The position numbers were made by a program, and so were the translations under genes. This document shows, one piece after another, positions 1-16,099 of a DNA stretch of 16,099 bases. Position 1 is the stretch's first letter. Each line of letters starts with the position of its first letter. The DNA is from a virus (lineage: Duplodnaviria; Heunggongvirae; Uroviricota; Caudoviricetes). Where the stretch lies: IMG/VR virus record IMGVR_UViG_2563366820_000001, positions 1-16,099 of that record; one strand, 5' to 3'. The notes beneath the pieces were generated by a model that did no database searches, was not told where the DNA came from, and saw only the letters and a list, made by a program, of their open reading frames with translations.

Positions 1-1254
1 ATGCTGGAACAAATGGGCATTGCCGCGAAGCAAGCCTCGTATAAATTAGCGCAACTCTCCAGCCGCGAAAAAAATCGCGTGCTGGAAAAAATCGCCGATG
101 AACTGGAAGCACAAAGCGAAATCATCCTCAACGCTAACGCCCAGGATGTTGCTGACGCACGTGCCAATGGCCTTAGCGAAGCGATGCTTGACCGTCTGGC
201 ACTGACGCCCGCACGGCTGAAAGGCATTGCCGACGATGTGCGCCAGGTGTGCAATCTCGCCGATCCGGTGGGGCAGGTGATTGATGGTGGTGTGCTGGAC
301 AGCGGCCTGCGTCTTGAGCGTCGTCGCGTACCGCTGGGGGTGATTGGCGTGATTTATGAAGCGCGCCCGAACGTGACGGTTGATGTTGCTTCCCTGTGCC
401 TGAAAACCGGTAACGCAGTGATCCTGCGTGGTGGCAAAGAAACCTGTCGCACTAACGCTGCAACGGTGGCGGTGATTCAGGACTCCCTGAAATCCTGCGG
501 CTTACCGGCGGGTGCCGTGCAGGCGATTGATAATCCTGACCGTGCGCTGGTAAGTGAAATGCTGCGTATGGATAAATACATCGACATGCTGATCCCGCGT
601 GGTGGCGCTGGCCTGCATAAGCTGTGCCGCGAACAGTCGACAATCCCGGTGATCACAGGCGGTATAGGCGTATGCCATATTTACGTTGATGAAAGTGCAG
701 AGATCGCTGAAGCCCTGAAAGTAATCGTCAACGCAAAAACTCAGCGCCCGAGCACGTGTAATACGGTAGAAACGTTGCTGGTGAATAAAAACATCGCAGA
801 TAGCTTCCTGCCTGTGTTAAGCAAACAGATGGCTGAAAGCGGTGTGACGTTACACGCCGATGCTACCGCACTGACGCAATTGCAGGCAGGTCCCGCGAAG
901 GTGGTTGCTGTTAAAGCTGAAGAGTATGACGATGAGTTTCTGTCCTTAGATTTGAACGTCAAAATCGTCAGCGATCTTGACGATGCCATCGCCCATATTC
1001 GTGAACACGGCACGCAACACTCCGATGCGATCCTGACCCGCGATATGCGCAACGCCCAGCGTTTTGTTAACGAAGTAGATTCCTCCGCTGTTTACGTTAA
1101 CGCTTCTACGCGTTTTACCGATGGCGGCCAGTTTGGTCTGGGTGCGGAAGTGGCGGTAAGCACACAAAAACTCCACGCGCGTGGCCCAATGGGGCTGGAA
1201 GCGCTGACCACTTACAAGTGGATCGGCATTGGTGATTACACCATTCGTGCGTAA
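1..1254 (+). CDS. proA: gamma-glutamyl phosphate reductase (glutamate-5-semialdehyde dehydrogenase), complete
   Basis: 417-aa ORF whose translation I recognise along its full length as E. coli ProA ([30 protein letters not shown] ... [14 protein letters not shown]); TAA stop at 1252..1254; followed by thrW as in the E. coli proBA-thrW locus. Confidence 0.96.
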
Positions 1255-1368
1255 ATAAAACCGGGTGATGCAAAAGTAGCCATTTGATTCACAAGGCCAT
1301 TGACGCATCGCCCGGTTAGTTTTAACCTTGTCCACCGTGATTCACATTCGTGAACATGTCCTTACAGG

Positions 1369-1444
1369 GCCGATATAGCTCAGTTGGTAGAGCAGCGCAT
1401 TCGTAATGCGAAGGTCGTAGGTTCGACTCCTATTATCGGCACCA
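1369..1444 (+). tRNA. thrW: tRNA-Thr (anticodon CGU)
   Basis: 76-nt sequence GCCGATATAGCTCAGTTGGTAGAGCAGCGCATTCGTAATGCGAAGGTCGTAGGTTCGACTCCTATTATCGGCACCA; 7-bp acceptor stem GCCGATA/TATCGGC, anticodon loop TTCGTAA, T-arm GGTTCGACTCC, 3' CCA. Confidence 0.95.
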
Positions 1445-1461
1445 TTCTAATGTCTCCCCAA

Positions 1462-1608
1462 GTCTACTCAAGTATTTAAAAAACTCTTATAATCCGCATG
1501 TTAGCGCCCCTTTTAGTCTTTTGACGTCTACTTAAGTACCCCAAAATCTACAGTCAATTGGGGGTACTTTTGGGGGTATTTGCTGTTCGGTTTAGTGGAG
1601 GTACCCCC
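1462..1608 (+). repeat. attL arm region with direct repeats GTCTACT(C/T)AAGTA (1462..1474, 1526..1538) and inverted GTACCCC/GGGGGTA motifs (1534..1546, 1560..1567, 1571..1579, 1601..1608); candidate integrase arm-type binding sites and int promoter
   Basis: Repeats read directly between the tRNA 3' end and the int start codon. Confidence 0.4.
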
Positions 1609-1610
1609 AA

Positions 1611-2825
1611 GTGAAACTCAATGCCCGTCAAATAGACACTGCCAAGCCAAAAGAGAAGGCTTACAAGCTGGCTGATGGTGGTGGTCTGTATCTCTTGGTA
1701 AAACCTAGTGGAGGAAAATATTGGCGCTTCAAGTATCGTGTAGCTGGTAAAGAGAAGCTGTTAGCACTAGGTGTGTATCCTGAAGTTACCTTGGCTGATG
1801 CTCGTGCAAAACGTGAAGAAGCTAAAAGGGGTATCGCTGGGGGTATCGATCCGATGGAAGCGAAACGAGAGGAAAAGATTGCCCGGGAAACGCAGTTAAA
1901 CAACACCTTCAAAGATATTGCCCTTGAGTGGCACAGCAGCAAATTAAAAAAATGGTCTGCTGGTTATGCTTCAGACATCCTCGAAGCCTTCAACAAAGAT
2001 GTGTTCCCTTACATTGGCAAAAAACCAATCGCCGAAATCAAACCACTTGAACTGCTGAATGTGCTGCGGCGCATCGAGGGGCGCGGTGCTACCGAAAAAG
2101 CCAAAAAAGTGAGGCAGCGATGCGGGGAAGTTTTCCGCTATGCAATTGTCACTGGACGTGCTGAGTATAACCCTGCACCGGATCTCACCAGCGCGATGCA
2201 AGGTCATGAATCTAATCATTATCCTTTCCTCACAGCCAAAGAATTACCTGATTTTTTCAAGGCATTGTCCAGTTACTCAGGAAGTGCATTGGTTGTTATG
2301 GCGGCTCGTCTACTGATTATCACCGGTTTGCGGACTGGCGAACTGCGCGGTGCATTATGGGATGAAATCGATCTCAACAAGGCTATCTGGGAGATACCAG
2401 CTTCACGGATGAAAATGCGTCGCCCTCATGTGGTGCCTTTGTCTGAGCAGGCTCTTTCGCTTATTGGGCAGATTAAAGAACTAACTGGCAATTATCCGCT
2501 TATGTTTCCCGGCCGTAATGATCCAAGGAAAACAATGAGCGAGGCTAGCATAAACCAAGTATTTAAACGCATCGGCTATAACGGAAAGGTTACTGGTCAT
2601 GGCTTCCGGCACACTATGAGCACCATTTTGCATGAGCAGGGCTATAACACCGCGTGGATAGAGACACAGCTTGCGCACGTCGATAAAAACTCAATTCGTG
2701 GCACATACAACCATGCGCAATATCTGGATGGGCGGCGGGAAATGCTTCAGTGGTACGCTGATTATATGGATTCGCTCGAGCATGGCGGAAATGTGGTGCA
2801 TGGTGAGTTCGGAAAATGCGGGTGA
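1611..2825 (+). CDS. int: P4-family tyrosine site-specific integrase
   Basis: 404-aa ORF with GTG start preceded by GGAGG (1597..1601); N-terminus MKLNARQIDTAKPKEKAYKLADGGGLYLLVKP typical of P4-like integrases; C-terminal catalytic region with conserved R (ITGLRTGELR), HGFRHT and Y (SIRGTYNHAQY); location directly downstream of a tRNA. Confidence 0.9.
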   Translation: MKLNARQIDTAKPKEKAYKLADGGGLYLLVKPSGGKYWRFKYRVAGKEKLLALGVYPEVTLADARAKREEAKRGIAGGIDPMEAKREEKIARETQLNNTFKDIALEWHSSKLKKWSAGYASDILEAFNKDVFPYIGKKPIAEIKPLELLNVLRRIEGRGATEKAKKVRQRCGEVFRYAIVTGRAEYNPAPDLTSAMQGHESNHYPFLTAKELPDFFKALSSYSGSALVVMAARLLIITGLRTGELRGALWDEIDLNKAIWEIPASRMKMRRPHVVPLSEQALSLIGQIKELTGNYPLMFPGRNDPRKTMSEASINQVFKRIGYNGKVTGHGFRHTMSTILHEQGYNTAWIETQLAHVDKNSIRGTYNHAQYLDGRREMLQWYADYMDSLEHGGNVVHGEFGKCG

Positions 2826-2896
2826 CTGGTTGAGTATACAGTAGTAGACTTTGAGCGATTAAGAAAAGGCTGTGTCTAGGGTCGCTCCCGAAAATC

Positions 2897-2951
2897 CGCA
2901 CACCTCTGCGGACTGGCACAGCCACTACGGTAGAGGGCGCAGAGGTGTGCG
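2897..2951 (+). promoter_or_regulatory. Perfect 14-bp inverted repeat CGCACACCTCTGCG (2897..2910) / CGCAGAGGTGTGCG (2938..2951), 27-nt spacer; second arm contains the AGAGGTG Shine-Dalgarno of the downstream ORF
   Basis: Reverse-complement identity verified base by base; the ATG at 2953 follows arm 2 directly. Confidence 0.5.
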
Positions 2952-2952
2952 T

Positions 2953-3723
2953 ATGGTTGATATTCATGCCGAATTAAATGAATATAAAAAAGAGTTTATT
3001 TATTTACGTGATTTTCTTGATGATGTATTTAAAGTTGTTGATGCTAATATTTCAGAAGTCATTACCTGGATACTCAAGAGAATAAATACAGTAAATCCAG
3101 GTATTACCCTGTACACAGTAAATTCATTAAATGAGGTGGAACTTTATTCTTCGGATCCGTTTGAGTGGAGATCTGATTTTAACTTTCTTTATGCAAAACT
3201 GGATACGGTTAGGGAGCGTGGTTGTTTACCTTGTGAGAGGGATGAGAGTGGTTTTCTGGTATCTGGTTATTGGGAAGATGCCGAATTTGAGGCAATGGGA
3301 TTCAGAAGAAATGAAATTTTCGAAATTTTCCCAGAAATCCTTGACGGGTTAATGAATCTGGAATGTGCTGACTCTTCTGAAAATAACGAGGCGCAAGGAA
3401 GCAATATTGAACATAAAGAGTTGCGTACAGATGATGATTTTTTATCCCGAATTGCAATGCTGGAAAAAGAAAATGAATCGTTAAGGGAGCGGGTAAATCA
3501 GTTAGAAAAGGAGCGCCCGATTTTGCTAAGGGCGTATCGTGATGATGACCCATTGTATCTGGCTATCGATATTAGAAACAGAGAGTGGGCCAATTACGAC
3601 CCAGAGAATGATCGCGCAACCAGGGGAAACCAGGGCGCGATTACTACTGAACTTGAAAAACGAGGTTTTACCTCCCGACAGGCCGCATCTATTGAGCTTG
3701 TCGCCTGTCCTATCAAACGATGA
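2953..3723 (+). CDS. Hypothetical protein (256 aa from ATG 2953; ORF track allows GTG at 2872), AT-rich N-terminal half, coiled-coil-like segment IAMLEKENESLRERVNQLEKER
   Basis: Long ORF with SD AGAGGTG 6 nt upstream of ATG 2953; codon composition markedly more AT-rich than the flanking int and alpA; no family recognised. Confidence 0.55.
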   Translation: MVDIHAELNEYKKEFIYLRDFLDDVFKVVDANISEVITWILKRINTVNPGITLYTVNSLNEVELYSSDPFEWRSDFNFLYAKLDTVRERGCLPCERDESGFLVSGYWEDAEFEAMGFRRNEIFEIFPEILDGLMNLECADSSENNEAQGSNIEHKELRTDDDFLSRIAMLEKENESLRERVNQLEKERPILLRAYRDDDPLYLAIDIRNREWANYDPENDRATRGNQGAITTELEKRGFTSRQAASIELVACPIKR

Positions 3724-3762
3724 AGCCTTACCCTAGTGATATCTCATGTTTTGTTCGCGTCT

Positions 3763-3841
3763 CACCCTAAGGGTAATCAGACCTCACCCTTAGGGTATTT
3801 TTGTATGCTTTCCCATCAATTTTACTATTACCCTTAGGGTA
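3763..3841 (+). promoter_or_regulatory. Three copies of a palindromic motif ACCCT(A/T)AGGGTA (3763..3776, 3785..3797, 3830..3841) upstream of alpA; candidate operator array
   Basis: Motifs read directly; ACCCTAAGGGT and ACCCTTAGGGT are reverse complements of each other. Confidence 0.5.
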
Positions 3842-3943
3842 AAAATATTCCCGATTACCATTAGGCATGAGGGTATGAAAATATTCGTTATTTCTGTGCC
3901 ATGATTACCTCGTCAAATTGAGTAGACGTTATGAGGTAAATAT

Positions 3944-4141
3944 ATGTCAAATACGCTTATTCGTTTAACGGAAGTTCAGCGTAGAACTGGATATAGCAAG
4001 GCATGGATTTATCGCCTTATGGGGCAAGGTAAATTTCCTGCATCAGTTAAAATTGGCTCGCGAGCGATTGCTTTCGTTGAGAGTGAAATTGACGAGTGGA
4101 TTAATCAGCGTATTGCGGAATCACGCGGAACAGCTACCTGA
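3944..4141 (+). CDS. alpA: AlpA-family phage transcriptional regulator / excisionase-like HTH protein
   Basis: 65-aa product MSNTLIRLTEVQRRTGYSKAWIYRLMGQGKFPASVKIGSRAIAFVESEIDEWINQR matches the AlpA pattern (L+EV...G.S+..IY.L...G.FP..VK.G.R...F.E.EI.EWI). Confidence 0.8.
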   Translation: MSNTLIRLTEVQRRTGYSKAWIYRLMGQGKFPASVKIGSRAIAFVESEIDEWINQRIAESRGTAT

Positions 4142-4219
4142 TTAAATGGCTACGGGGCCAGAAGTCCCAGCTATCCACCAGCAAATAAAAAGTAACTTAA
4201 TTCGATAGCAGGAGTTTTT

Positions 4220-5020
4220 ATGAAACTGCGAAAAACGCCCGTACAGGGGCAGGGATTCGTTCGGCCTGAAAACCAGAGCCAACAAAATTTCGGCGAAATT
4301 ATCCCGGTTATTTCCGGCGTTATTGGCGGGCGTGAAACCAATATTGTTAGCGCCAGAGCGTTGCATAAGGCGCTGGGTGTGAAGCGTGATTTCACAACCT
4401 GGATTAAAGGACGCATTGATGAGTACGGATTTAAAAAGGGCGTGGATTTTGAATTCGTAGAAAATTTGACCTCCCCCAATCCGGTGAGCGCAAAATCTCG
4501 CCAACGTGTAGAGCACGACTACCTGAGCACTATCAACATGGCGAAAGAACTGGCGATGGTCGAACGCACCGAACAGGGCCGCGCCGTTCGTCAGTACTTC
4601 ATCAAATGCGAGGAAGAGCTACACAAGGTTGCGCCTGTACGTTCCGCAGCGTTACGCCGGGAACTGAAAGCCCGTATCACAGTTGCCAGCTACTTTAAGC
4701 CAATGTGTGCCGCGCTGGAGGCGTACCGGGCTGAACTGGGTAAAAACACGCTCCAGCACCATTACACCACGGAAGCCAATATGCTGGCGCGTATCGTGCT
4801 GGGTGGCATGACTGCAAAACAGTGGGCGCAGGCGAACGGCATTACAGGCGAACCACGCGACCACATGAGCACGTTGCAGCTTGAGCACCTTTCTTACCTT
4901 GAGCAGAGCAATATCACGCTGATTGAGTTAGGCCAGGACTACCACCAGCGGAAGGCTGAATTAATTCGTCTTTCGCAGCGTTGGTTAGCCCGTCGCATGG
5001 AGGAAAACAGCCATGTGTAA
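4220..5020 (+). CDS. Phage antirepressor-like protein (AntA/AntB-type N-terminal domain)
   Basis: 266-aa ORF with AGGAG SD; segment ARALHKALGVKRDFTTWIKGRIDEYGFKKGVDFEF resembles the AntA/AntB antirepressor domain signature; called by eye, not by search. Confidence 0.55.
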   Translation: MKLRKTPVQGQGFVRPENQSQQNFGEIIPVISGVIGGRETNIVSARALHKALGVKRDFTTWIKGRIDEYGFKKGVDFEFVENLTSPNPVSAKSRQRVEHDYLSTINMAKELAMVERTEQGRAVRQYFIKCEEELHKVAPVRSAALRRELKARITVASYFKPMCAALEAYRAELGKNTLQHHYTTEANMLARIVLGGMTAKQWAQANGITGEPRDHMSTLQLEHLSYLEQSNITLIELGQDYHQRKAELIRLSQRWLARRMEENSHV

Positions 5021-5275
5021 CGCTCTGACCGTTACAAAAAGAGAAAGCGCCCCGTTGCCGGAGCGCCTTTGTGAACGAATTACCTGTAGCACCATATTGC
5101 TTACTGTCTACGAGGCAGATTATAGCGTTGTGGTCGCACAGAGTGAAGGCGCTGATCACCGTTACTACAGCACACCAGAAATGCGGAATATTTTGCTGCA
5201 AAATGTCGTTGGCCACGCTGTCCGGAAAGCAAAAAATTTTGCTGGTGGCGCGACTGATGCGATTTTTTCTGGGCG

Positions 5276-5449
5276 TCAGCCTTTTGGCTCGATACCGCGC
5301 TGTTGTAATTCTTTGCGGAGTATTCGTTTAATCCAAGTAGCTAATGAGGTGTCGCCGTCTGCCTTGGCTGCCTCCTCAAGTTGCGCTCTAAATTCTTCTG
5401 GTAGTCGCATTTGGTATGGTGGTGATCGTTTCTCTAATGGTGTTGACAT
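5276..5449 (-). CDS. Arc/MetJ-type ribbon-helix-helix DNA-binding protein (57 aa), not in the ORF track
   Basis: Minus-strand translation verified codon by codon: MSTPLEKRSPPYQMRLPEEFRAQLEEAAKADGDTSLATWIKRILRKELQQRGIEPKG; MRLPEEF...SLATWIKRIL is the Arc-like beta-strand/helix signature; SD-like AGGGG upstream; divergent from the + strand operon. Confidence 0.6.
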   Translation of the reverse strand: MSTPLEKRSPPYQMRLPEEFRAQLEEAAKADGDTSLATWIKRILRKELQQRGIEPKG

Positions 5450-5489
5450 GGTAATTACCCCTAATTACTATAGTTACATGGTAATTACC
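5446..5489 (+). promoter_or_regulatory. Two copies of ACATGGTAATTACC (5446..5459, 5476..5489) containing the perfect palindrome GGTAATTACC, 30 bp apart, in the divergent intergenic region; candidate operators for the Arc-like repressor
   Basis: Exact 14-nt repeats read from sequence; the first overlaps the Arc-like start codon. Confidence 0.5.
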
Positions 5490-5585
5490 ATTGTACTTAC
5501 CATTACGCAAAAAACAACGCCCCGCAGTGCTGGAACACATGCAGGGCGTCTAACCACCAACGATAGCAGAAGTATCGAGGTAGCT

Positions 5586-5789
5586 ATGAGAAATCATACC
5601 ACACACCCGCAAGGGCGGGACTCGCACAACCTGAATAAATACATCTGGCGTTTTATCGCCCTGAGCACGGCACAACCGCGCGTAATTCACATCGAGGCCA
5701 CCAGCGAACAGGAAGCCCGCCAGCAATCCCCGGCTGGCTGCGTGATGGTATTCGCTGCCCGTATTCGCCAGGAGGTGCACCATGCATAA
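5586..5789 (+). CDS. Hypothetical small protein (67 aa), first gene of the replication-module operon
   Basis: ATG at 5586 preceded by GAGG; in frame with the C-terminal part of the spurious 5013..5789 track ORF; stop overlaps the next start (ATGCATAA). Confidence 0.45.
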   Translation: MRNHTTHPQGRDSHNLNKYIWRFIALSTAQPRVIHIEATSEQEARQQSPAGCVMVFAARIRQEVHHA

Positions 5790-6147
5790 CCTGTCAATTT
5801 CTGACCTTAACAGCATTCAGTTTGACGAGAAATTTACCGGGCAGCTACTGGTCAATGTGGAGAACGGGCGCATAGTGCGTAATTACCACCTGCCGGATGG
5901 TGCAATTGCCGGAAGCGTTGAAGCATTGCTGGAAATGGCGGAACGTGCGCGACTGATTAAGCCGTCAACGTGCCATCACGATGATGATCTGCATTTTACC
6001 GGACGCATGGTGAGTCACTACGAAAACGGCGTTGAAGTATCCCGCGAACGGCTGCGTGATGATTGCTGTTTCGGCACACTGCCGGAATTTATCGAATTGC
6101 TGACCAGTTGCGGTTACCAGGTCATTCAGGGGGTGCATCATGGGTAA
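5782..6147 (+). CDS. Hypothetical protein (121 aa) with two internal copies of an FTG...NG... module
   Basis: Translationally coupled on both sides; internal repeat FTGQLLVNVENGRIV / FTGRMVSHYENGVEV. Confidence 0.55.
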   Translation: MHNLSISDLNSIQFDEKFTGQLLVNVENGRIVRNYHLPDGAIAGSVEALLEMAERARLIKPSTCHHDDDLHFTGRMVSHYENGVEVSRERLRDDCCFGTLPEFIELLTSCGYQVIQGVHHG

Positions 6148-6340
6148 TCAGCCAGCAACAATGACAATTACCCTGAATGTGCCAGATGATTTCACCGGAC
6201 GCGTACTGGTTTACCTGGATAAAGGGAACGTGAAATCACAATGCCGACTGCGAAATAATGAAATTGTAAGTACGGTAGAAGGCTTTTCTGAACTCTGTAT
6301 TCGTGCAGGAATAAAACCGGAACTGCTGACAGGAAAATAA
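6140..6340 (+). CDS. Hypothetical protein (66 aa), paralogous to the module in the upstream ORF
   Basis: FTGRVLVYLDKGNVKSQCRL...TVEGFSELCIRAGIKP aligns with FTGQLLVNVENGRIVRNYHL...SVEALLEMAERARLIKP of the upstream product; start overlaps the upstream stop. Confidence 0.5.
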   Translation: MGNQPATMTITLNVPDDFTGRVLVYLDKGNVKSQCRLRNNEIVSTVEGFSELCIRAGIKPELLTGK

Positions 6341-6344
6341 AACC

Positions 6345-6659
6345 ATGAAAAAGAAAAATTCTGGCTTTACTGCCAGCGGTCTCTCTCGGCCTGAAATTCG
6401 CCCCGGCGATATTTTCCGGGATAAATACGGCAGTCAGATAACGGTAAAAACGGTGAGTGCTTATCGTGTGACCTATATCCGCGAAGGGTATGCGCATCCC
6501 TGCGTGTCGTCACATATGCGCTTTGAAAGGGAATTCATCCTTGTAAGTAAAGCGCCACCAGCAGAATTAAGCGACATCGACAAAATCATGAGCGTCACGG
6601 GCGCGGAACGCATCAGGACAGTACGTGAAATTATTCGTGAGCGGGGAGGTAAGAAGTGA
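6345..6659 (+). CDS. Hypothetical protein (104 aa)
   Basis: ORF with ATG 4 nt after the previous stop; stop overlaps the primase GTG start (GTGA). Confidence 0.5.
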   Translation: MKKKNSGFTASGLSRPEIRPGDIFRDKYGSQITVKTVSAYRVTYIREGYAHPCVSSHMRFEREFILVSKAPPAELSDIDKIMSVTGAERIRTVREIIRERGGKK

Positions 6660-13464: not shown

Positions 13465-14046
13465 ATGAGTTTTTTTAGTCTTTATGGGAAAGAACTATTT
13501 TCTTTTTTTATAGCGATATTAACATGGATACTGAATAACAGATTTAAAAGCAAGGCAAAGTTATCCTATGGTTATCAGCATGGATTTACTTTTCTTCTCA
13601 ATGAACCCTTACGGAATGCCAATGGTGAGATAATATCTAATTCACAGTTGGTGTATACACGATCTATTATTCTTGTTAATGAAGGGCGAGAAAGTGCTAC
13701 TAATATATCATTGGTTTTTAACTATAAGCCAATGCATATTAATTTTTGGCCTGTCCACCATTTTGAAGAAAATATTGAGCAGGATGGTCGCTATATTATC
13801 AAGTTTGAAAGTCTTGCACCTGGTGAGTCTATTCAATGTGAAATGTTATCAATAAATAGAGAAGTTCCAAGTATTCTATCGATAAGATCTAAAGAGTGTG
13901 TGGCTGAGCCAGTGAATATCGTAATGCAAAAATCGATTAGTAATATTGCCCTACGTTGCTATCAATTATTAATACTTCTTGGAACTGGTACATTAACATA
14001 TTTAATTATCGTTATTCTGCAATGGTTAGTCACTAAAACGGGATAA
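13465..14046 (+). CDS. Hypothetical membrane protein (193 aa) with one N-terminal and one C-terminal predicted TM helix; AT-rich cargo gene
   Basis: SD GAAGGAAG 6 nt upstream of ATG 13465 (track start is GTG 13462); hydrophobic segments FSFFIAILTWILNN and LLILLGTGTLTYLIIVILQWLV; AT-rich codon usage unlike the backbone. Confidence 0.6.
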   Translation: MSFFSLYGKELFSFFIAILTWILNNRFKSKAKLSYGYQHGFTFLLNEPLRNANGEIISNSQLVYTRSIILVNEGRESATNISLVFNYKPMHINFWPVHHFEENIEQDGRYIIKFESLAPGESIQCEMLSINREVPSILSIRSKECVAEPVNIVMQKSISNIALRCYQLLILLGTGTLTYLIIVILQWLVTKTG

Positions 14047-14074
14047 TCCATTGTATTGAACTTATTAATTGGAT

Positions 14075-14275
14075 ATGAGTGCTGATAGGAAAGCTATGAC
14101 CATCACCGAAGCCGATTTGCTGGAGATGATCCGCAGCATTGCCGGAATCAAACAACCAGCAAGCAAAATTAACAGGTGTTCAGCGCCTGTTTCCGTTGTG
14201 CTGCAACAGGAACGCCACCAGCAGGATGATGTGAGGCCGTATCAGTGGAAGAAACCGGACAGGCCGCGACGGTGA
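14075..14275 (+). CDS. Short ORF (66 aa from ATG 14075; track uses TTG 14069), possibly a gene remnant
   Basis: GC-richer island between two AT-rich genes; no SD; translation is protein-like (MTITEADLLEMIRSIAGIKQPA) but unassignable. Confidence 0.25.
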   Translation: MSADRKAMTITEADLLEMIRSIAGIKQPASKINRCSAPVSVVLQQERHQQDDVRPYQWKKPDRPRR

Positions 14276-14606
14276 GCGGAGCGTTACGGTAAGGCTACAG
14301 CCAAGCCAAACATTAAGCCTAAGGGTAAGGTTTTTTGTTGCAGGTGGCATTAATTTGGATGTTGATTTAAGGAGCATTTTTACTGAGACGGCCTGTTCGG
14401 GGTAACTTTTTTGTATGCCATTCACTTGTATGAGAGCTGTACTACGAAATAGGTTGGCATGGTGGGGAGAGCATTCTGTACTGTTATTGAATAACACTAT
14501 CGTTTTTTATTCCTTTTGGTTATTAAGTGGTGTGCGTTAAGACATGGTTTTCTTTATGTTTTTCATGTATATATTGCTTTTTAACTCAATAAGGAAACAC
14601 TGATAA

Positions 14607-15500
14607 ATGGCAAGACCAAAAAAATTAACTTATGGGGCGGTGAATATAACAATGCATCCCCACTCGCCAGAAAAATATGTAGAATTGTTCAGAATGGCAA
14701 GAAAAAACGCGAGAAATGTTAATTTGAGGGGGGACTCTTTCGCGACTTTATCACACTTTTATCCTTACAGGAAAGATCAGGTAGTTAGTGAACCTTTTGA
14801 AGGGGAAATTCTAAAGTATACAGATATTGATGTTGATGGAGATTGGTTCGATATTGTAAAGAAAGACATTGCCTCAGATGAGCAAAAGGAAAGGATAAGT
14901 ATACCTGAGAATTTAAAACCAAATGTGGCTCGATTCTCTTTTGTTTTTCTACCTGCCAGCCATCTTTTAGTTTATGAGATGCAGGACAAAGGTCGGCATC
15001 TTACATCAAAACAAATAGAAAATTTTCTGAATGGAATATTTTCTCATGAGAGAATTATAGAGAAGTTTGGGAAGATTAATGTTACAATATTAACCGAGCC
15101 AGATAACGTAGAACGTATGCTTTCTTTAAAAGGCATTACGTGTATAAATATGGTTACTCGACGTCCTAACCCAGATGATCTCGCTTCTGCAGAAAGTATT
15201 ATGCAAAAGCGTTTCAAACGTATTGGCGTTATTGAAGAAGATAAAACATATAAATCTGAGCGTGGTCAGGAAATTAAACCTGATAGTGAGTTAAAGCAGG
15301 ATGCTCTTATTGCTTCGAGAAATGGCGAAGTTAGCATACGTAGGATTAATGAGGCGGGATTAGTTGAGGTTCATGCCTCAAGCGATTTACCACTTCAAAG
15401 GGTTGAATCATATGATTCTGACGTAACATCAGTTACTGAGCTATTGTTATTAAGAGCAAAATCTTTAGCAGATGAGTTTAAGAGGCTTCTGAGAAAGTAA
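14607..15500 (+). CDS. Hypothetical soluble protein (297 aa), first gene of a translationally coupled two-gene cargo cassette; candidate defense component
   Basis: ATG with AAGGAAA SD; AT-rich; no Walker A, HTH or other motif I can recognise; acidic cluster YTDIDVDGDWFDIVKKD; stop overlaps the next start (TAATG). Confidence 0.75.
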   Translation: MARPKKLTYGAVNITMHPHSPEKYVELFRMARKNARNVNLRGDSFATLSHFYPYRKDQVVSEPFEGEILKYTDIDVDGDWFDIVKKDIASDEQKERISIPENLKPNVARFSFVFLPASHLLVYEMQDKGRHLTSKQIENFLNGIFSHERIIEKFGKINVTILTEPDNVERMLSLKGITCINMVTRRPNPDDLASAESIMQKRFKRIGVIEEDKTYKSERGQEIKPDSELKQDALIASRNGEVSIRRINEAGLVEVHASSDLPLQRVESYDSDVTSVTELLLLRAKSLADEFKRLLRK

Positions 15501-16099
15501 TGAGTAAAGTAAAAGAATCAACCAGTGCAATGGCTAGATACTGGAAGATCTATGGTGGCGCTGGGGCTGTATTTAAAAGTCGCTATTTTTGGTGTGCTTT
15601 TTTTATGACAGTGATTCTTTATCCATCTTGGTCTCATCAGGGGTGGTGGAATGATATTCTGTCGTTAATGCCGAACCTTTTGGGTTTTTCACTGGGTGGT
15701 TTTGCTATGTGGATTGCTATTGGAGATGAGGCTTTCAAAAAAATAATAACTGGAGATGAAGAAAGTGAAAATGGAGAGGTAGAATATTCTCCTTATATGT
15801 CTGTGAATGCAACCTTTGTTCATTTTATATTATTGCAGTTGTTAACTATAATAATGGCCTTGGTCACCAAGGCCTATAGTAGCATTCTCATAAATAACGC
15901 TTTTATGTATTATTATTTAGGTGTTGCTTACAGGTATGTACTGTTAACATTCAGCTTCTTTGCATACTTTATATTTATTTACTCAGTATTCTCTGCGTTA
16001 GCTGCCGTTTTTGCTATATTTCGTGTTTCTAGTTGGTATAATACTTTTATGACCTTACGAAACAAACAAGATAACGCTAAAAATAATAAGGAGGAATAA
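15500..16099 (+). CDS. Hypothetical integral membrane protein (199 aa, about 4 predicted TM helices); candidate membrane effector
   Basis: Hydrophobic segments YFWCAFFMTVILYPSW, LLGFSLGGFAMWIAIG, FVHFILLQLLTIIMALV, YVLLTFSFFAYFIFIYSVFSALAAVFAIF; ATG overlaps the upstream stop; TAA at 16097..16099 is the last codon of the window. Confidence 0.75.
   Translation: MSKVKESTSAMARYWKIYGGAGAVFKSRYFWCAFFMTVILYPSWSHQGWWNDILSLMPNLLGFSLGGFAMWIAIGDEAFKKIITGDEESENGEVEYSPYMSVNATFVHFILLQLLTIIMALVTKAYSSILINNAFMYYYLGVAYRYVLLTFSFFAYFIFIYSVFSALAAVFAIFRVSSWYNTFMTLRNKQDNAKNNKEE

What the first reader, a model, noticed from the sequence alone, without database searches (positions are those of the whole stretch)
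1369..16099. PICI/P4-like phage satellite integrated at thrW, with mosaic GC composition
Directly 3' of tRNA-Thr(CGU) lie a P4-family integrase, AlpA, an antirepressor-like gene, a P4-alpha-type primase-helicase with adjacent iterons, and a possible packaging-specificity module, all on one strand. This matches the organisation described for Gram-negative phage-inducible chromosomal islands and P4-like satellites. No capsid or tail genes are present, so it is not a full prophage. Backbone genes are GC-rich, while three blocks (2953..3500, 9130..9950, 13380..16099) are strongly AT-rich, suggesting separately acquired cargo.
Basis: partly seen in the sequence, partly recalled or inferred. Interest (0 to 1): 0.6.

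Follow-up and report, generated by a model that had tools for sequence, protein, structure and literature searches.

The report
Phage satellite island at thrW
This is an ordinary member of a known class of small "phage satellite" islands (PICIs) inserted at the E. coli thrW tRNA gene; its sub-modules are mildly interesting because they suggest how it exploits its helper phage and what cargo it carries.

Summary
A P4-type integrase, AlpA, an AntA/B antirepressor, an SF3 helicase "primase" with iterons, and no capsid, portal, terminase-large, tail or lysis genes follow tRNA-Thr(CGU). Three AT-rich blocks (GC 0.31-0.37) are real.

The element is a Gram-negative PICI, not a P4-like satellite. Its integrase and att core match EcCIMP1, a proven thrW PICI. 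Its regulatory and replication half matches EcCICFT073 (Pri 71% identical). P4 psu, sid, delta and epsilon are absent. Relatives with the same cargo have attR about 0.7 kb past the window end, which implies an element of about 15.4 kb.

- **AT-rich block 2:** it is not cargo. It holds stacked replication origins plus the 3' remnant of a RepA-type helicase gene, left by replicon-module swaps.
- **AT-rich blocks 1 and 3:** these are variable cargo slots. Block 3 carries a DUF4747 protein and a 4-TM partner, and is split by a conserved backbone ORF.
- **Hijacking module:** it is a split, order-swapped copy of a helper phage's prohead protease-scaffold protein, followed by a winged-helix protein and a conserved AAGTGTCAA repeat array.

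Verdict: a new member of a known kind, of modest interest.

The parts
1369..1444 (+). thrW, tRNA-Thr(CGU). The attL core TCCTATTATC at 1428-1437 lies in its 3' end.
   Evidence: ARAGORN and Rfam. The core is identical to the EcCIMP1 att core. This is the only copy in the window.
1611..2825 (+). P4-type tyrosine integrase (404 aa).
   Evidence: Pfam Arm-DNA-bind_3, Phage_int_M and Phage_integrase. It is 96.5% identical to the EcCIMP1 integrase, 99.5-99.8% to the thrW islands L001/L002, and 43% to P4 Int.
2869..2936 (+). int-alpA RNA motif (Rfam RF02996).
   Evidence: 48.4 bits against a gathering score of 35.8, E 1.5e-7. The MFE fold reproduces the three-stem model.
2950..3723 (+). Cargo slot 1: an AT-rich gene of 257 aa with no known function. 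The listed ORF starts at 2872, but that start overlaps the RNA motif.
   Evidence: No Pfam, PHROG, PADLOC or NCBIfam match. It is 84% identical in L002, replaced by an unrelated gene in L001, and absent in L003/L004. The family is small: 70 representatives share the C-terminal ~90 aa. GC 0.40.
3944..4141 (+). AlpA-family regulator (65 aa), the presumed master activator.
   Evidence: PF05930, E 2.4e-19. It is 81% identical to EcCIMP1 AlpA and 37% to P4 Vis. The activator role was shown for EcCICFT073 and EcCIMP1.
4220..5020 (+). AntA/AntB-family antirepressor (266 aa).
   Evidence: PF08346, E 5e-23; phrog_5817 anti-repressor, E 3.5e-39.
5276..5449 (-). Candidate small ribbon-helix-helix repressor (57 aa), transcribed divergently from the replication operon.
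   Evidence: Weak Arc hit (E 0.006) and weak YlcI_YnfO_N hit (E 0.001, below cutoff). It sits where L001, L002 and EcCICFT073 carry annotated YlcI/YnfO genes.
5443..5503 (.). Promoter-like site TTGACA-17-TACTAT, overlapped by two exact copies of ACATGGTAATTACC (palindromic core GGTAATTACC) and one degenerate copy. These are candidate operators.
   Evidence: Promoter scan, 10/12 match; repeats.
5640..5789 (+). Icd-like cell-division-inhibitor domain, first gene of the rightward operon. The true start within ORF 5013-5789 is uncertain.
   Evidence: NCBIfam NF033153, E 4.8e-19, at aa 210-253 of that ORF.
5782..6340 (+). Two small paralogous genes (121 and 66 aa) of unknown function.
   Evidence: Both match phrog_340. 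Conserved in L001-L004.
6345..6659 (+). DUF4222 protein (104 aa), family of the EcCICFT073 99-aa protein C1493 (RgdR).
   Evidence: PF13973, E 1e-17. It is 52% identical to the EcCICFT073 DUF4222 gene.
6656..8407 (+). Replication initiator/helicase (583 aa): a 142-aa N-terminal domain, then a P4-alpha-like SF3 helicase and C-terminal domain. No recognisable primase catalytic domain.
   Evidence: D5_N, DUF5906, Pox_D5; TIGR01613 at 109.1/108.7. It is 71% identical to EcCICFT073 Pri. Residues 143-579 are 40% identical to P4 alpha 327-763. The N-terminal 143 aa are 68.5% identical to the RepA-type replicase of L004.
8425..8713 (.). Origin, iteron cluster 1 (11 GGTAGAY sites).
   Evidence: The same iterons follow D5-type pri genes in L001-L003 and are absent from the RepA-type L004.
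8784..9131 (+). 3' remnant (115 aa) of a RepA-family (AAA_25) helicase gene.
   Evidence: It matches phrog_2850 positions 347-465 of 465. It is 96% identical to the C-terminus of the intact 470-aa RepA gene of L004. The copy in L003 is annotated as a pseudogene missing its N-terminus.
9130..9562 (.). AT-rich origin-like DNA that belongs with the RepA remnant. It contains AGTGGGGA repeats.
   Evidence: Window 8725-9562 is 94% identical to the 3' end of L004 RepA plus the DNA after it. Five exact AGTGGGGA sites lie in 9134-9518.
9575..9948 (.). Second D5-type origin: iteron cluster 2 (GGTAGAC at 9611-9943) in AT-rich DNA.
   Evidence: 93% identical to the pri-proQ intergenic origin of L001; iterons.
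9954..10505 (+). ProQ/FinO-domain RNA-binding protein (183 aa).
   Evidence: PF04352, E 1.6e-23; NCBIfam FinO/ProQ, below cutoff.
10502..10789 (+). PerC-family transcriptional activator (95 aa).
   Evidence: PF06069, E 1e-31. It is 52% identical to EcCICFT073 PerC.
10793..10862 (+). Two tandem terminator-like hairpins that close the regulatory/replication operon.
   Evidence: (alignment).
10967..11164 (+). Conserved 65-aa ORF at the head of the hijacking operon.
   Evidence: 95-97% identical in L002-L004, and 52% identical to an ORF in EcCIMP1.
11195..11788 (+). 197-aa protein homologous to the C-terminal domain of a phage prohead protease-scaffold fusion. That domain is presumed to bind capsid or act as scaffold.
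   Evidence: phrog_6216 positions 402-544 of 545. Its residues 42-191 are 58% identical to the C-terminal third of the Rac-SA53 430-aa head protein. Its homologues in L022 and L021 are 63% and 56% identical to residues ~303-430 of the L022 helper's 438-aa protein.
11853..12524 (+). DUF2213 prohead (capsid-maturation) protease homologue (223 aa).
12531..13055 (+). 174-aa protein with an N-terminal Xis/TerS/Rpp-type winged helix and a C-terminal alpha/beta domain of unassigned fold. Candidate packaging-specificity or directionality factor.
13076..13340 (.). Array of six AAGTGTCAA sites (five direct, one inverted), candidate binding sites of the 174-aa protein.
   Evidence: 6 sites found against 0.15 expected; 0 of 200 shuffles reach 6. 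The motif AAAGTGT(C/A)AACC recurs 3' of the homologous gene in Serratia and Klebsiella.
13462..14046 (+). Cargo slot 2a: AT-rich gene for a 194-aa protein with hydrophobic N- and C-termini and unknown function.
   Evidence: No family match. Present in L001 and absent from L002-L004. GC 0.33. Hydropathy.
14069..14275 (+). Conserved backbone ORF (59-68 aa) that marks the right end of the core.
   Evidence: 90-98% identical in L001-L004. A small ORF (62-63 aa) also follows the wHTH gene in the Serratia (L012) and Klebsiella (L011) relatives, and the 59-aa ORF does in further E. coli-type loci. GC 0.52.
14607..15500 (+). Cargo slot 2b: DUF4747 protein (297 aa), presumed cytoplasmic sensor of a two-gene phage-exclusion system.
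   Evidence: PF15931, E 9.5e-98. The literature links DUF4747 to the exclusion proteins CarolAnn gp44 and Sbash gp30. This exact protein is always followed by the 199-aa gene in satellites at several chromosomal sites.
15500..16099 (+). 199-aa membrane partner with about four hydrophobic segments. Its start overlaps the DUF4747 stop codon.
   Evidence: Hydropathy peaks at 24-40, 53-69, 106-122 and 157-173. phrog_20580. Always paired with the DUF4747 gene.

Best explanation
The region from 1428 to the window end is the left ~95% of a Gram-negative phage-inducible chromosomal island (PICI) of about 15.4 kb, integrated in the 3' end of thrW.

- **Integration (inferred from EcCIMP1).** The P4-type integrase recombines the element's att site with TCCTATTATC(G)GCACCA and regenerates the tRNA.
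- **Induction (shown for relatives, inferred here).** A helper phage switches on alpA. AlpA activates itself and the rightward genes. A small divergent Arc/YlcI-like protein with palindromic operators over the icd-pri promoter may hold the replication operon off.
- **Replication (shown for the 71%-identical EcCICFT073 Pri-ori, inferred here).** The SF3 helicase initiator binds GGTAGAY iterons that flank AT-rich DNA.
- **Hijacking (inferred).** The genes after PerC are a split, order-swapped copy of the helper's prohead protease-scaffold protein without its long charged linker. They most likely interfere with, or resize, helper proheads. The helper is predicted to be a phage with a Rac-SA53-type head module.
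- **Packaging (inferred).** The winged-helix protein and its AAGTGTCAA array most likely direct packaging to satellite DNA. In sister elements an Sf6-type TerS fills the same slot.
- **Cargo (inferred).** Two AT-rich slots hold accessory genes. One is a DUF4747 plus 4-TM pair that probably acts as an abortive-infection system against other phages.
For: **Site and integrase**
- thrW is followed by an integrase 96.5% identical to that of EcCIMP1.
- EcCIMP1 has been shown to excise, circularise and transduce with helper phage Kapi1. Its att core is TCCTATTATC.
- That core is present at 1428. In L001 and L002 it is repeated as attR about 690 bp beyond the gene that ends the window, giving elements of 14.1 kb (L002) and 15.7 kb (L001).

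**Backbone**
- The gene order is that of EcCICFT073: int, alpA, minus-strand YlcI-like gene, icd-like, small ORFs, DUF4222/RgdR, pri, ori, PerC, morphogenesis genes, DNA-binding protein.
- Pri is 71% identical to the EcCICFT073 protein, DUF4222 52% and PerC 52%.
- The int-alpA RNA motif is present.

**Origin**
- The iterons are statistically solid and specific to the replicase type.
- Two iteron sets flanking AT-rich DNA are the published hallmark of PICI origins.

**Absences**
- No tail, holin, portal, capsid or terL family matched.
- P4 psu, sid, delta and epsilon have no homologue.

**Hijacking module**
- In phages the full-length gene lies between the portal and capsid genes.
- In Pantoea a sister satellite sits inside the terL gene of a prophage. 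That prophage's own 438-aa protein matches both satellite halves.
- Sister elements carry an Sf6-type TerS where the window has the winged-helix gene.
- The repeat array is conserved across genera.

**Modularity**
- The same body occurs behind an unrelated integrase at yifB, and at other chromosomal sites.
Against: - The window stops before attR, so the right boundary and intactness of this particular copy are inferred from relatives.
- Nothing here shows induction, replication or transfer, and no helper is known for this genome.
- The RepA remnant and stacked origins show past recombination and some decay.
- The winged-helix protein has no detectable sequence relationship to Rpp or TerS. Its fold match covers only a generic Xis/MerR-type DNA-binding domain, so it could equally be an excisionase or a regulator.
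- No lambda-type cosN was found.
- Homology between DUF4747 and lambda RexA could not be reproduced: BLASTP found nothing, hhalign gave 0.4% probability, and RexA belongs to a different Pfam family.
- PADLOC found no defence family in the cargo.
- A prohead protease gene is unusual for a PICI that makes no capsid of its own.
Confidence: 0.85

Rival explanations
1. It is a P4-like satellite. On this reading it would use Sid, Psu and Delta to shrink P2-type capsids, and epsilon to derepress a P2-type helper.
For: Int, AlpA/Vis and the helicase part of alpha are homologous to P4 proteins at 43%, 37% and 40% identity. TIGR01613, the P4-family primase C-terminal domain, is just met. An Icd-like domain is present.
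Against: tblastn in both directions finds no homologue of psu, sid, delta, epsilon, cI, cII, gop or beta. No Psu/Sid Pfam family matched. The gene order is that of EcCICFT073, not of P4. The head-related genes derive from a non-P2 head module. The published comparison states that only these three proteins are shared between PICIs and P4.
Confidence: 0.03
2. It is a decayed, immobile remnant: either a cryptic prophage or a dead satellite fixed at thrW.
For: A truncated RepA helicase gene and redundant origins are present. No complete E. coli genome carries the same combination over at least 80% of the window. attR is not in the window.
Against: Every backbone ORF has the same length as in relatives and 90-99% identity to them. 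The same RepA remnant is carried by otherwise intact relatives. Modules recur in many combinations and at several att sites, which points to ongoing mobility. There are no remnants of phage lysis or tail genes.
Confidence: 0.08
3. It is a capsid-forming PICI (cf-PICI) that builds its own small capsids and steals only tails.
For: It encodes a prohead protease homologue and a scaffold-like domain. A serine protease is a component of cf-PICIs.
Against: No major capsid protein, portal, head-tail connectors, terL or HNH were found in the island. In relatives the island ends about 0.7 kb after the window, which leaves no room for them.
Confidence: 0.01
4. It is a non-phage integrative element, such as a mobilisable genomic island, that merely shares an integrase and a primase with satellites.
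For: P4-type integrases and D5-type primases also occur on genomic islands. The SatelliteFinder authors warn that int + alpA + pri alone is weak evidence.
Against: Phage head-module derivatives are present and are linked to specific prophages. The integrase and att site are those of a transduced PICI. Sister elements carry a TerS. No relaxase or conjugation family matched.
Confidence: 0.03

Closest known systems
EcCICFT073 (prototype Gram-negative cos-type PICI; Fillol-Salom 2018, 2019)
   Same: Same gene order from alpA to PerC. The minus-strand YlcI/YnfO-like gene, Icd-like gene, DUF4222/RgdR and Pri (71% identical) are shared, as are iterons after pri and PerC (52%). A helper-head-derived morphogenesis slot is followed by a small DNA-binding protein at the right end.
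   Different: - The integrase and att site are unrelated (25% identity; roxA-phoQ region against thrW).
- An AntA/B antirepressor and a ProQ/FinO protein replace SSB.
- The morphogenesis slot holds a split prohead protease/scaffold instead of homologues of the lambda-type capsid and decoration proteins.
- There is no Rpp homologue by sequence and no lambda-like cosN.
EcCIMP1 (PICI at tRNA-Thr between proA and yagU, helper phage Kapi1; Pick 2025)
   Same: Same insertion site and att core. The integrase is 96.5% identical and AlpA 81%. AntA/B (61%), DUF4222 and PerC homologues are present.
   Different: The rest of the body differs. EcCIMP1 has a TOPRIM/DUF927 primase, P22-like ejection proteins and a second alpA, and is 20 kb long. 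It has no DUF2213 pair, no 174-aa winged-helix protein and no DUF4747 cargo.
Satellite phage P4
   Same: Tyrosine integrase family, a Vis/AlpA-type regulator, an alpha-like SF3 helicase with iteron origins, and dependence on a helper for virions.
   Different: The element has no psu, sid, delta, epsilon or cI RNA immunity region and no Toprim primase domain. Its gene order differs, and its head-related genes point to a different helper lineage.
Helper-embedded PICIs (HE-PICI, e.g. 11capE; Mageeney 2023)
   Same: Sister elements carrying the same DUF2213 pair or the same winged-helix gene sit inside late genes of their presumed helper prophages. In Pantoea the interrupted gene is terL; in Klebsiella the element lies next to a capsid-gene fragment.
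   Different: The window element is at a tRNA gene, not inside a prophage, and has a P4-type integrase.
SaPI CpmA/CpmB capsid-size redirection
   Same: A satellite protein that mimics the capsid-binding end of the helper's scaffold (own knowledge of CpmB). Here the 197-aa protein is homologous to the C-terminal domain of the helper's protease-scaffold.
   Different: There is no sequence relationship. This element also keeps a protease domain. No effect on capsid size has been tested.
Lambda RexAB, CarolAnn gp44/gp43 and Sbash gp30/gp31 exclusion systems
   Same: A two-gene cassette: a ~300-aa cytoplasmic protein followed by a small membrane protein with four transmembrane segments, carried by a mobile element. 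The literature links the DUF4747 domain to CarolAnn gp44 and Sbash gp30.
   Different: No detectable sequence or profile similarity to lambda RexA or RexB. RexA falls in PF15969, not DUF4747. The published DUF4747 matches of the actinophage proteins are described as weak. Activity of this pair is untested.

Membership tests
Gram-negative PICI (criteria of Fillol-Salom 2018) | Conserved organisation with an integrase, a master regulator (AlpA) and a replication module, co-oriented. | tested here: met
   int at 1611-2825, alpA at 3944-4141, pri at 6656-8407. Collinear with EcCICFT073.
Gram-negative PICI (criteria of Fillol-Salom 2018) | [quoted passage not shown] | tested here: met
   All 16 GGTAGAY sites fall in 8425-8713 and 9611-9943, around DNA of GC 0.31. 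The intervening DNA also holds a remnant of another replicon.
Gram-negative PICI (criteria of Fillol-Salom 2018) | No phage structural or lytic genes. | tested here: met
   No capsid, portal, terL, tail, holin or lysin family matched. One caveat: a prohead-protease homologue and a scaffold-like domain are present. EcCICFT073 itself carries capsid and decoration homologues.
Gram-negative PICI (criteria of Fillol-Salom 2018) | Size of about 12-15 kb, bounded by att repeats. | tested here: inconclusive
   attL is present at 1428, but attR lies outside the window. Relatives L001 and L002 have attR, giving 15.7 and 14.1 kb. The estimate for this copy is about 15.4 kb.
Gram-negative PICI (criteria of Fillol-Salom 2018) | An att site specific to PICIs and never used by prophages. 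| tested here: inconclusive
   thrW is used by the proven PICI EcCIMP1. A survey of all thrW occupants was not made. The K-12 cryptic element CP4-6 also sits at thrW (own knowledge).
Gram-negative PICI (criteria of Fillol-Salom 2018) | Helper-phage-dependent induction, packaging and high-frequency transfer, with interference against the helper. | not testable with these tools
   Experimental only. It has been shown for EcCIMP1 (same integrase) and for EcCICFT073 (71%-identical Pri).
PICI, SatelliteFinder model (de Sousa 2023) | Five core components: integrase, regulator, primase-replicase, capsid-morphogenesis gene and small terminase. No tail, holin, portal or connector genes. | tested here: inconclusive
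   Three components are clearly present and no forbidden component was seen. The protease/scaffold pair and the winged-helix protein are candidates for the other two. The SatelliteFinder HMMs were not available, and TerS similarity is limited to the HTH (phrog_57, E 3e-7).
P4-like satellite (SatelliteFinder model) | The psu-delta-sid capsid-hijacking operon. | tested here: not met
   tblastn of P4 Psu, Sid and Delta against the window gives no hit at E <= 0.01. No Pfam Psu family matched.
P4-like satellite (SatelliteFinder model) | Epsilon/Ash helper-derepression protein, and full-length alpha (primase + helicase). | tested here: not met
   No epsilon hit. Pri aligns only with alpha residues 327-763, and no Zn-ribbon or Toprim domain is present.
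Capsid-forming PICI | Own major capsid protein, portal, head-tail connectors and terL. | tested here: not met
   None detected. Relatives end about 0.7 kb past the window.
Rpp (redirecting phage packaging) proteins | Sequence homology to RppA, RppB or RppC. | tested here: not met
   phmmer and a 33-sequence profile against the PDB, which holds RppC (6hn7), give no hit.
Rpp (redirecting phage packaging) proteins | TerS-like winged-helix DNA-binding domain, plus a cognate site next to the gene. | tested here: inconclusive
Prohead (capsid maturation) serine protease, assemblin fold | Herpesvirus-assemblin / T4 gp21 fold with conserved His and Ser catalytic residues. | tested here: met
Lambda RexA/RexB | Membership of Pfam RexA (PF15969) and RexB (PF15968), or detectable homology to them. 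| tested here: not met
   The window proteins match DUF4747 and no Pfam family respectively, while lambda RexA and RexB match PF15969 and PF15968. BLASTP and hhalign are negative.
DUF4747 two-gene exclusion cassette (CarolAnn/Sbash type) | A DUF4747 protein encoded next to a small membrane protein with four transmembrane segments. | tested here: met
   PF15931, E 9.5e-98. The partner has about four hydrophobic segments. The pairing is invariant in six loci. Anti-phage activity is untested.

The most novel reading that the evidence does not exclude
This PICI lineage hijacks its helper with a mechanism not yet described for satellites. It has captured the helper's prohead protease-scaffold gene, dropped the long charged linker, and split the rest into two separately expressed proteins in swapped order. 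One is the capsid-binding C-terminal domain. The other is a probably active assemblin-fold protease.

On this reading the pair mis-processes or resizes helper proheads. A winged-helix protein unrelated to Rpp, together with a dedicated AAGTGTCAA array, redirects packaging to the satellite. A divergent Arc/YlcI-like protein with palindromic operators could also be the master repressor that has not been identified in Gram-negative PICIs.
Probability: 0.3. Interest if true: 0.6.

Novelty: new member of a known kind. Interest (0 to 1): 0.35.

Why it matters
As a whole the element adds little. PICIs at thrW (EcCIMP1) and the EcCICFT073-type backbone are already published.

What is useful is the anatomy it exposes:

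1. **Exchange of ready-made cassettes.** Integrase/att, replicase/origin, hijacking module and cargo are swapped as units. The swaps leave visible scars, namely stacked origins and a replicase remnant. AT-rich DNA in such islands is therefore not automatically cargo.
2. **Hijacking slot tailored to the helper's head type.** EcCICFT073 carries capsid and decoration homologues there. This element carries protease and scaffold derivatives. That gives a testable prediction of the helper (phages with a Rac-SA53-type head module) and possibly a new interference mechanism.
3. **Cargo.** The DUF4747 plus membrane-protein pair rides this satellite family at several chromosomal sites and is a good candidate anti-phage system to test.

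Tried and rejected
- **P4-like membership.** Rejected. Reciprocal tblastn with all P4 proteins found only Int, Vis and alpha residues 327-763.
- **Lambda-type cosN.** The one 2-mismatch match lies inside pri and is at chance level.
- **DUF4747 = RexA.** BLASTP, hhalign and a profile search of the PDB were all negative.
- **Known defence systems.** PADLOC gave no hit for any cargo or hijacking protein.
- **c4/IsrK-type antisense RNA near icd/ant.** No Rfam hit at E <= 0.1.
- **Function of the 257-aa slot-1 protein.** An exhaustive phmmer search gave 70 relatives sharing a C-terminal ~90 aa. Pfam scans of ten of them were uninformative.
- **Finding the source contig to read attR directly.**
  - An exact-match scan of species-representative genomes with a window-specific junction found nothing.
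  - No complete E. coli genome covers at least 80% of the window.
  - Contigs carrying the exact DUF4747 protein all differ from the window upstream.
- **ORF 5013-5789 (258 aa) as a gene.** Rejected. Only its last ~50 codons are Icd-like. The rest overlaps a minus-strand ORF and the promoter/operator region.
- **First look for EcCICFT073 in CFT073.** It hit the neighbouring lambdoid prophage instead.

Full report
**1. What is in the window**

The window starts in proA (1-1254). tRNA-Thr(CGU), which is thrW, follows at 1369-1444. No complete E. coli genome among 5,426 covers 80% of the window. The best covers 72% at 94.6% identity. Many genomes carry related islands in the same place, between proA-thrW and the pao/yag region.

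The following genes lie on the + strand:
- a tyrosine integrase with the P4-type three-domain architecture (1611-2825)
- AlpA (3944-4141)
- an AntA/B antirepressor (4220-5020)
- an Icd-like domain (about 5640-5789)
- two phrog_340 paralogues
- a DUF4222 protein
- a D5_N/DUF5906/Pox_D5 helicase annotated as "primase" (6656-8407)
- a ProQ/FinO protein
- PerC
- a group of head-related and DNA-binding genes
- AT-rich genes at the right end

No capsid, portal, terminase-large, tail or lysis family was found. The three AT-rich blocks are real. Their GC is 0.36, 0.31 and 0.37, against 0.48-0.53 for backbone genes.

**2. Which kind of element it is**

Two published PICIs bracket it.

- **EcCIMP1.** It sits in tRNA-Thr between proA and yagU and has the att core TCCTATTATC. 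It excises, circularises and is transduced only with helper phage Kapi1. The window integrase is 96.5% identical to the EcCIMP1 integrase, and the core is at 1428. Beyond int, alpA and ant, the two elements differ.
- **EcCICFT073.** From alpA rightwards the window matches this prototype. It has the same order of minus-strand YlcI/YnfO-like gene, icd-like gene, small ORFs, DUF4222 (the RgdR family), pri, origin and PerC. Pri is 71% identical over its full length.

The same body also occurs behind an unrelated integrase (25% identity) inside yifB, and at further sites. So the element is a cassette mosaic.

The right end is inferred from relatives. In L001 and L002 the thrW 3' end is repeated (TCCTATTATCGCACCATT) about 690 bp after the gene that ends the window. 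The elements are 15.7 kb (L001) and 14.1 kb (L002), and chromosomal genes follow. This copy should therefore be about 15.4 kb, with its attR just outside the window.

**3. Why it is not P4-like**

Reciprocal tblastn with every P4 protein finds only three matches: Int (43%), Vis/AlpA (37%) and alpha residues 327-763 (40%). Nothing matches psu, sid, delta, epsilon, cI, cII, gop or beta. This is exactly the overlap reported between PICIs and P4.

The "primase" lacks the Zn-ribbon/Toprim domain of alpha. Its first 143 residues are instead 68.5% identical to the N-terminus of an alternative RepA-type (AAA_25) replicase used by sister elements.

**4. The origin region, and why AT-rich block 2 is not cargo**

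All 16 GGTAGAY sites in the window lie in two clusters, 8425-8713 and 9611-9943. Chance expectation is 1.9. The same iterons follow D5-type pri genes in relatives and are missing from a RepA-type relative.

Pairwise alignment resolves 8300-10050 into three pieces:
- the pri 3' end plus its origin, as in L002/L003
- the last 115 codons of a RepA helicase gene plus the AT-rich DNA that follows it in L004, with AGTGGGGA repeats
- the origin of the L001 pri allele, running into proQ

RefSeq annotates the same 115-codon piece in L003 as a pseudogene. Block 2 is therefore a stack of origins left by replicon swaps. It still fits the PICI rule of two iteron sets around an AT-rich stretch.

**5. Regulation**

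Rfam finds the int-alpA RNA motif at 2869-2936, at 48.4 bits against a gathering score of 35.8. The slot-1 gene must therefore start near 2950, not at 2872.

Between ant and icd there is probably one minus-strand gene of 57 aa. It has weak Arc and YlcI/YnfO similarity, and relatives carry annotated YlcI/YnfO genes at the same position. Its start abuts two exact copies of ACATGGTAATTACC and one degenerate copy. These overlap the best promoter-like site in the window, TTGACA-17-TACTAT at 5443-5471.

I read this as a candidate repressor/operator switch on the replication operon. That is inference. AlpA as a helper-induced auto-activator is taken from work on EcCICFT073 and EcCIMP1. Two terminator-like hairpins follow perC.

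**6. The hijacking module**

- **Two halves of one phage protein.** ORF 11853-12524 is a DUF2213 protein. ORF 11195-11788 matches the C-terminal part of the same PHROG, phrog_6216.
- **The phage version.** In phages such as Rac-SA53 and PdC23 the two parts belong to one protein. It may carry an N-terminal NUDIX domain, and it has a long Ala/Glu/Lys-rich linker. The gene lies between the portal and the major capsid genes.
- **The satellite version.** The two parts are separate ORFs in swapped order, and the linker is absent. Identity to Rac-SA53 is 54% and 58%.
- **Distribution.** Stand-alone 221-229-aa forms occur in Citrobacter, Salmonella, Enterobacter, Klebsiella and Pantoea.
- **Link to a helper.** In Pantoea the sister satellite is inserted in the terL gene of a prophage. 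That prophage's own 438-aa protein matches both satellite halves at 55% and 63%.

This points to phages with a Rac-SA53-type head module as helpers. It also suggests interference with, or resizing of, helper proheads. The function is inferred, not shown. In EcCICFT073 the same slot holds homologues of the lambda-type capsid and decoration proteins.

**7. The packaging candidate**

- **The repeat array.** Directly downstream, six AAGTGTCAA sites lie within 265 bp, against 0.15 expected. The same motif follows the homologous gene in Serratia and Klebsiella.
- **The slot in sister elements.** Elements with the same protease pair carry an Sf6-type TerS in this position.

A packaging-specificity role is the best guess. 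An excisionase or regulator role is not excluded.

**8. Cargo**

- **Slot 1 (2950-3723).** It holds a 257-aa protein of unknown function. L001 has an unrelated gene there, and the yifB elements have none.
- **Slot 2a (13462-14046).** At the right end, a 194-aa hydrophobic-ended protein lies before the conserved 59-68-aa backbone ORF at 14069-14275.
- **Slot 2b (14607-16099).** After that ORF come a DUF4747 protein (E 1e-97) and an overlapping gene for a protein with about four transmembrane segments.

Other relatives carry an nSTAND NTPase, or a DprA-like plus PRTase pair, at the right end.

The literature ties DUF4747 to the two-gene exclusion systems of phages CarolAnn and Sbash, and by analogy to lambda RexAB. 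I could not reproduce any similarity to RexA or RexB. PADLOC has no model for the pair. An abortive-infection role is therefore probable but unproven.

**9. Verdict**

This is a Gram-negative PICI built from an EcCIMP1-type integration cassette and an EcCICFT073-type core. It is a new member of a known kind.

The "P4-like" label and the cargo reading of block 2 were not. The split protease-scaffold module, the winged-helix protein with its repeat array, and the candidate repressor switch are the parts worth an experiment.

Prevalence among 5,426 complete E. coli genomes:
- the protease / winged-helix module is covered at >=80% in 21 genomes
- the whole right-end cargo block is covered at >=80% in 2 genomes

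Noticed in passing
window 2869-2936 (+): Rfam int-alpA RNA motif (RF02996) scores above its gathering threshold, directly after int and overlapping the 5' end of the long ORF 2872-3723. Its function is unknown. It is conserved even in L001, where the downstream gene differs.
   Followed up: partly
window 5276-5503: A minus-strand 57-aa Arc/YlcI-like ORF abuts palindromic ACATGGTAATTACC repeats that overlap a strong promoter-like site facing the icd-pri operon. This is a candidate repressor/operator switch in an element class for which no master repressor has been identified.
   Followed up: partly
window 8300-10050: Three origin cassettes lie in a row: a D5-type origin, then a RepA-gene remnant with its own origin, then a second D5-type origin. 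Each matches a different relative. The retained 115-aa RepA C-terminal fragment is still an intact ORF.
   Followed up: yes
window 6656-7084; L004 8002-8427: The first 143 residues of the D5-type replicase are 68.5% identical to the N-terminus of the otherwise unrelated RepA/AAA_25 replicase. The two replicase types share this domain, but their iterons differ.
   Followed up: partly
window 13076-13340; L012 10594-10764; L010/L011 10515-10634: A conserved AAAGTGT(C/A)AA repeat array lies 3' of the 174-aa winged-helix gene in E. coli, Serratia and Klebsiella elements.
   Followed up: partly
L022 (Pantoea agglomerans) 1-12450: A sister satellite is embedded in a prophage terL gene. Only terL codons 332-442 remain upstream of the portal gene. 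The presumed helper encodes the full-length 438-aa DUF2213 protein. Klebsiella loci L010 and L011 show similar embedding next to phage late and tail genes.
   Followed up: partly
L007 6995-8287; L008 3625-5286; alignment A2: In phages the prohead protease (DUF2213) is often fused to an N-terminal NUDIX hydrolase domain and a long Ala/Glu/Lys-rich linker. This is an unusual architecture for a head protease.
   Followed up: no
window 9954-10505: The satellite encodes a ProQ/FinO-domain RNA chaperone with a poly-Gln/basic N-terminus (GCA repeat at 10037-10055). EcCICFT073 has an SSB gene at this position. A possible link to the int-alpA RNA or other structured RNAs was not examined.
   Followed up: no
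L002 25702-26901; L012 11260-12806: The right-end cargo slot differs in relatives. L002 has an nSTAND1/AAA NTPase, annotated as orc1/cdc6. The Serratia locus L012 has a DprA-like (SLOG) protein plus a phosphoribosyltransferase-like protein. Both look like defence candidates.
   Followed up: no
L013 and L015 12348-15516; L005 1-8548: In some genomes the thrW PICI is followed by an integrase fragment and a second island carrying MarR and vat-autotransporter genes, as in strain MP1. thrW can therefore carry tandem islands, and the window's downstream context is not predictable.
   Followed up: no
window 10793-10862: Two consecutive terminator-like hairpins lie immediately after perC. They separate the regulatory/replication operon from the hijacking genes.
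   Followed up: no
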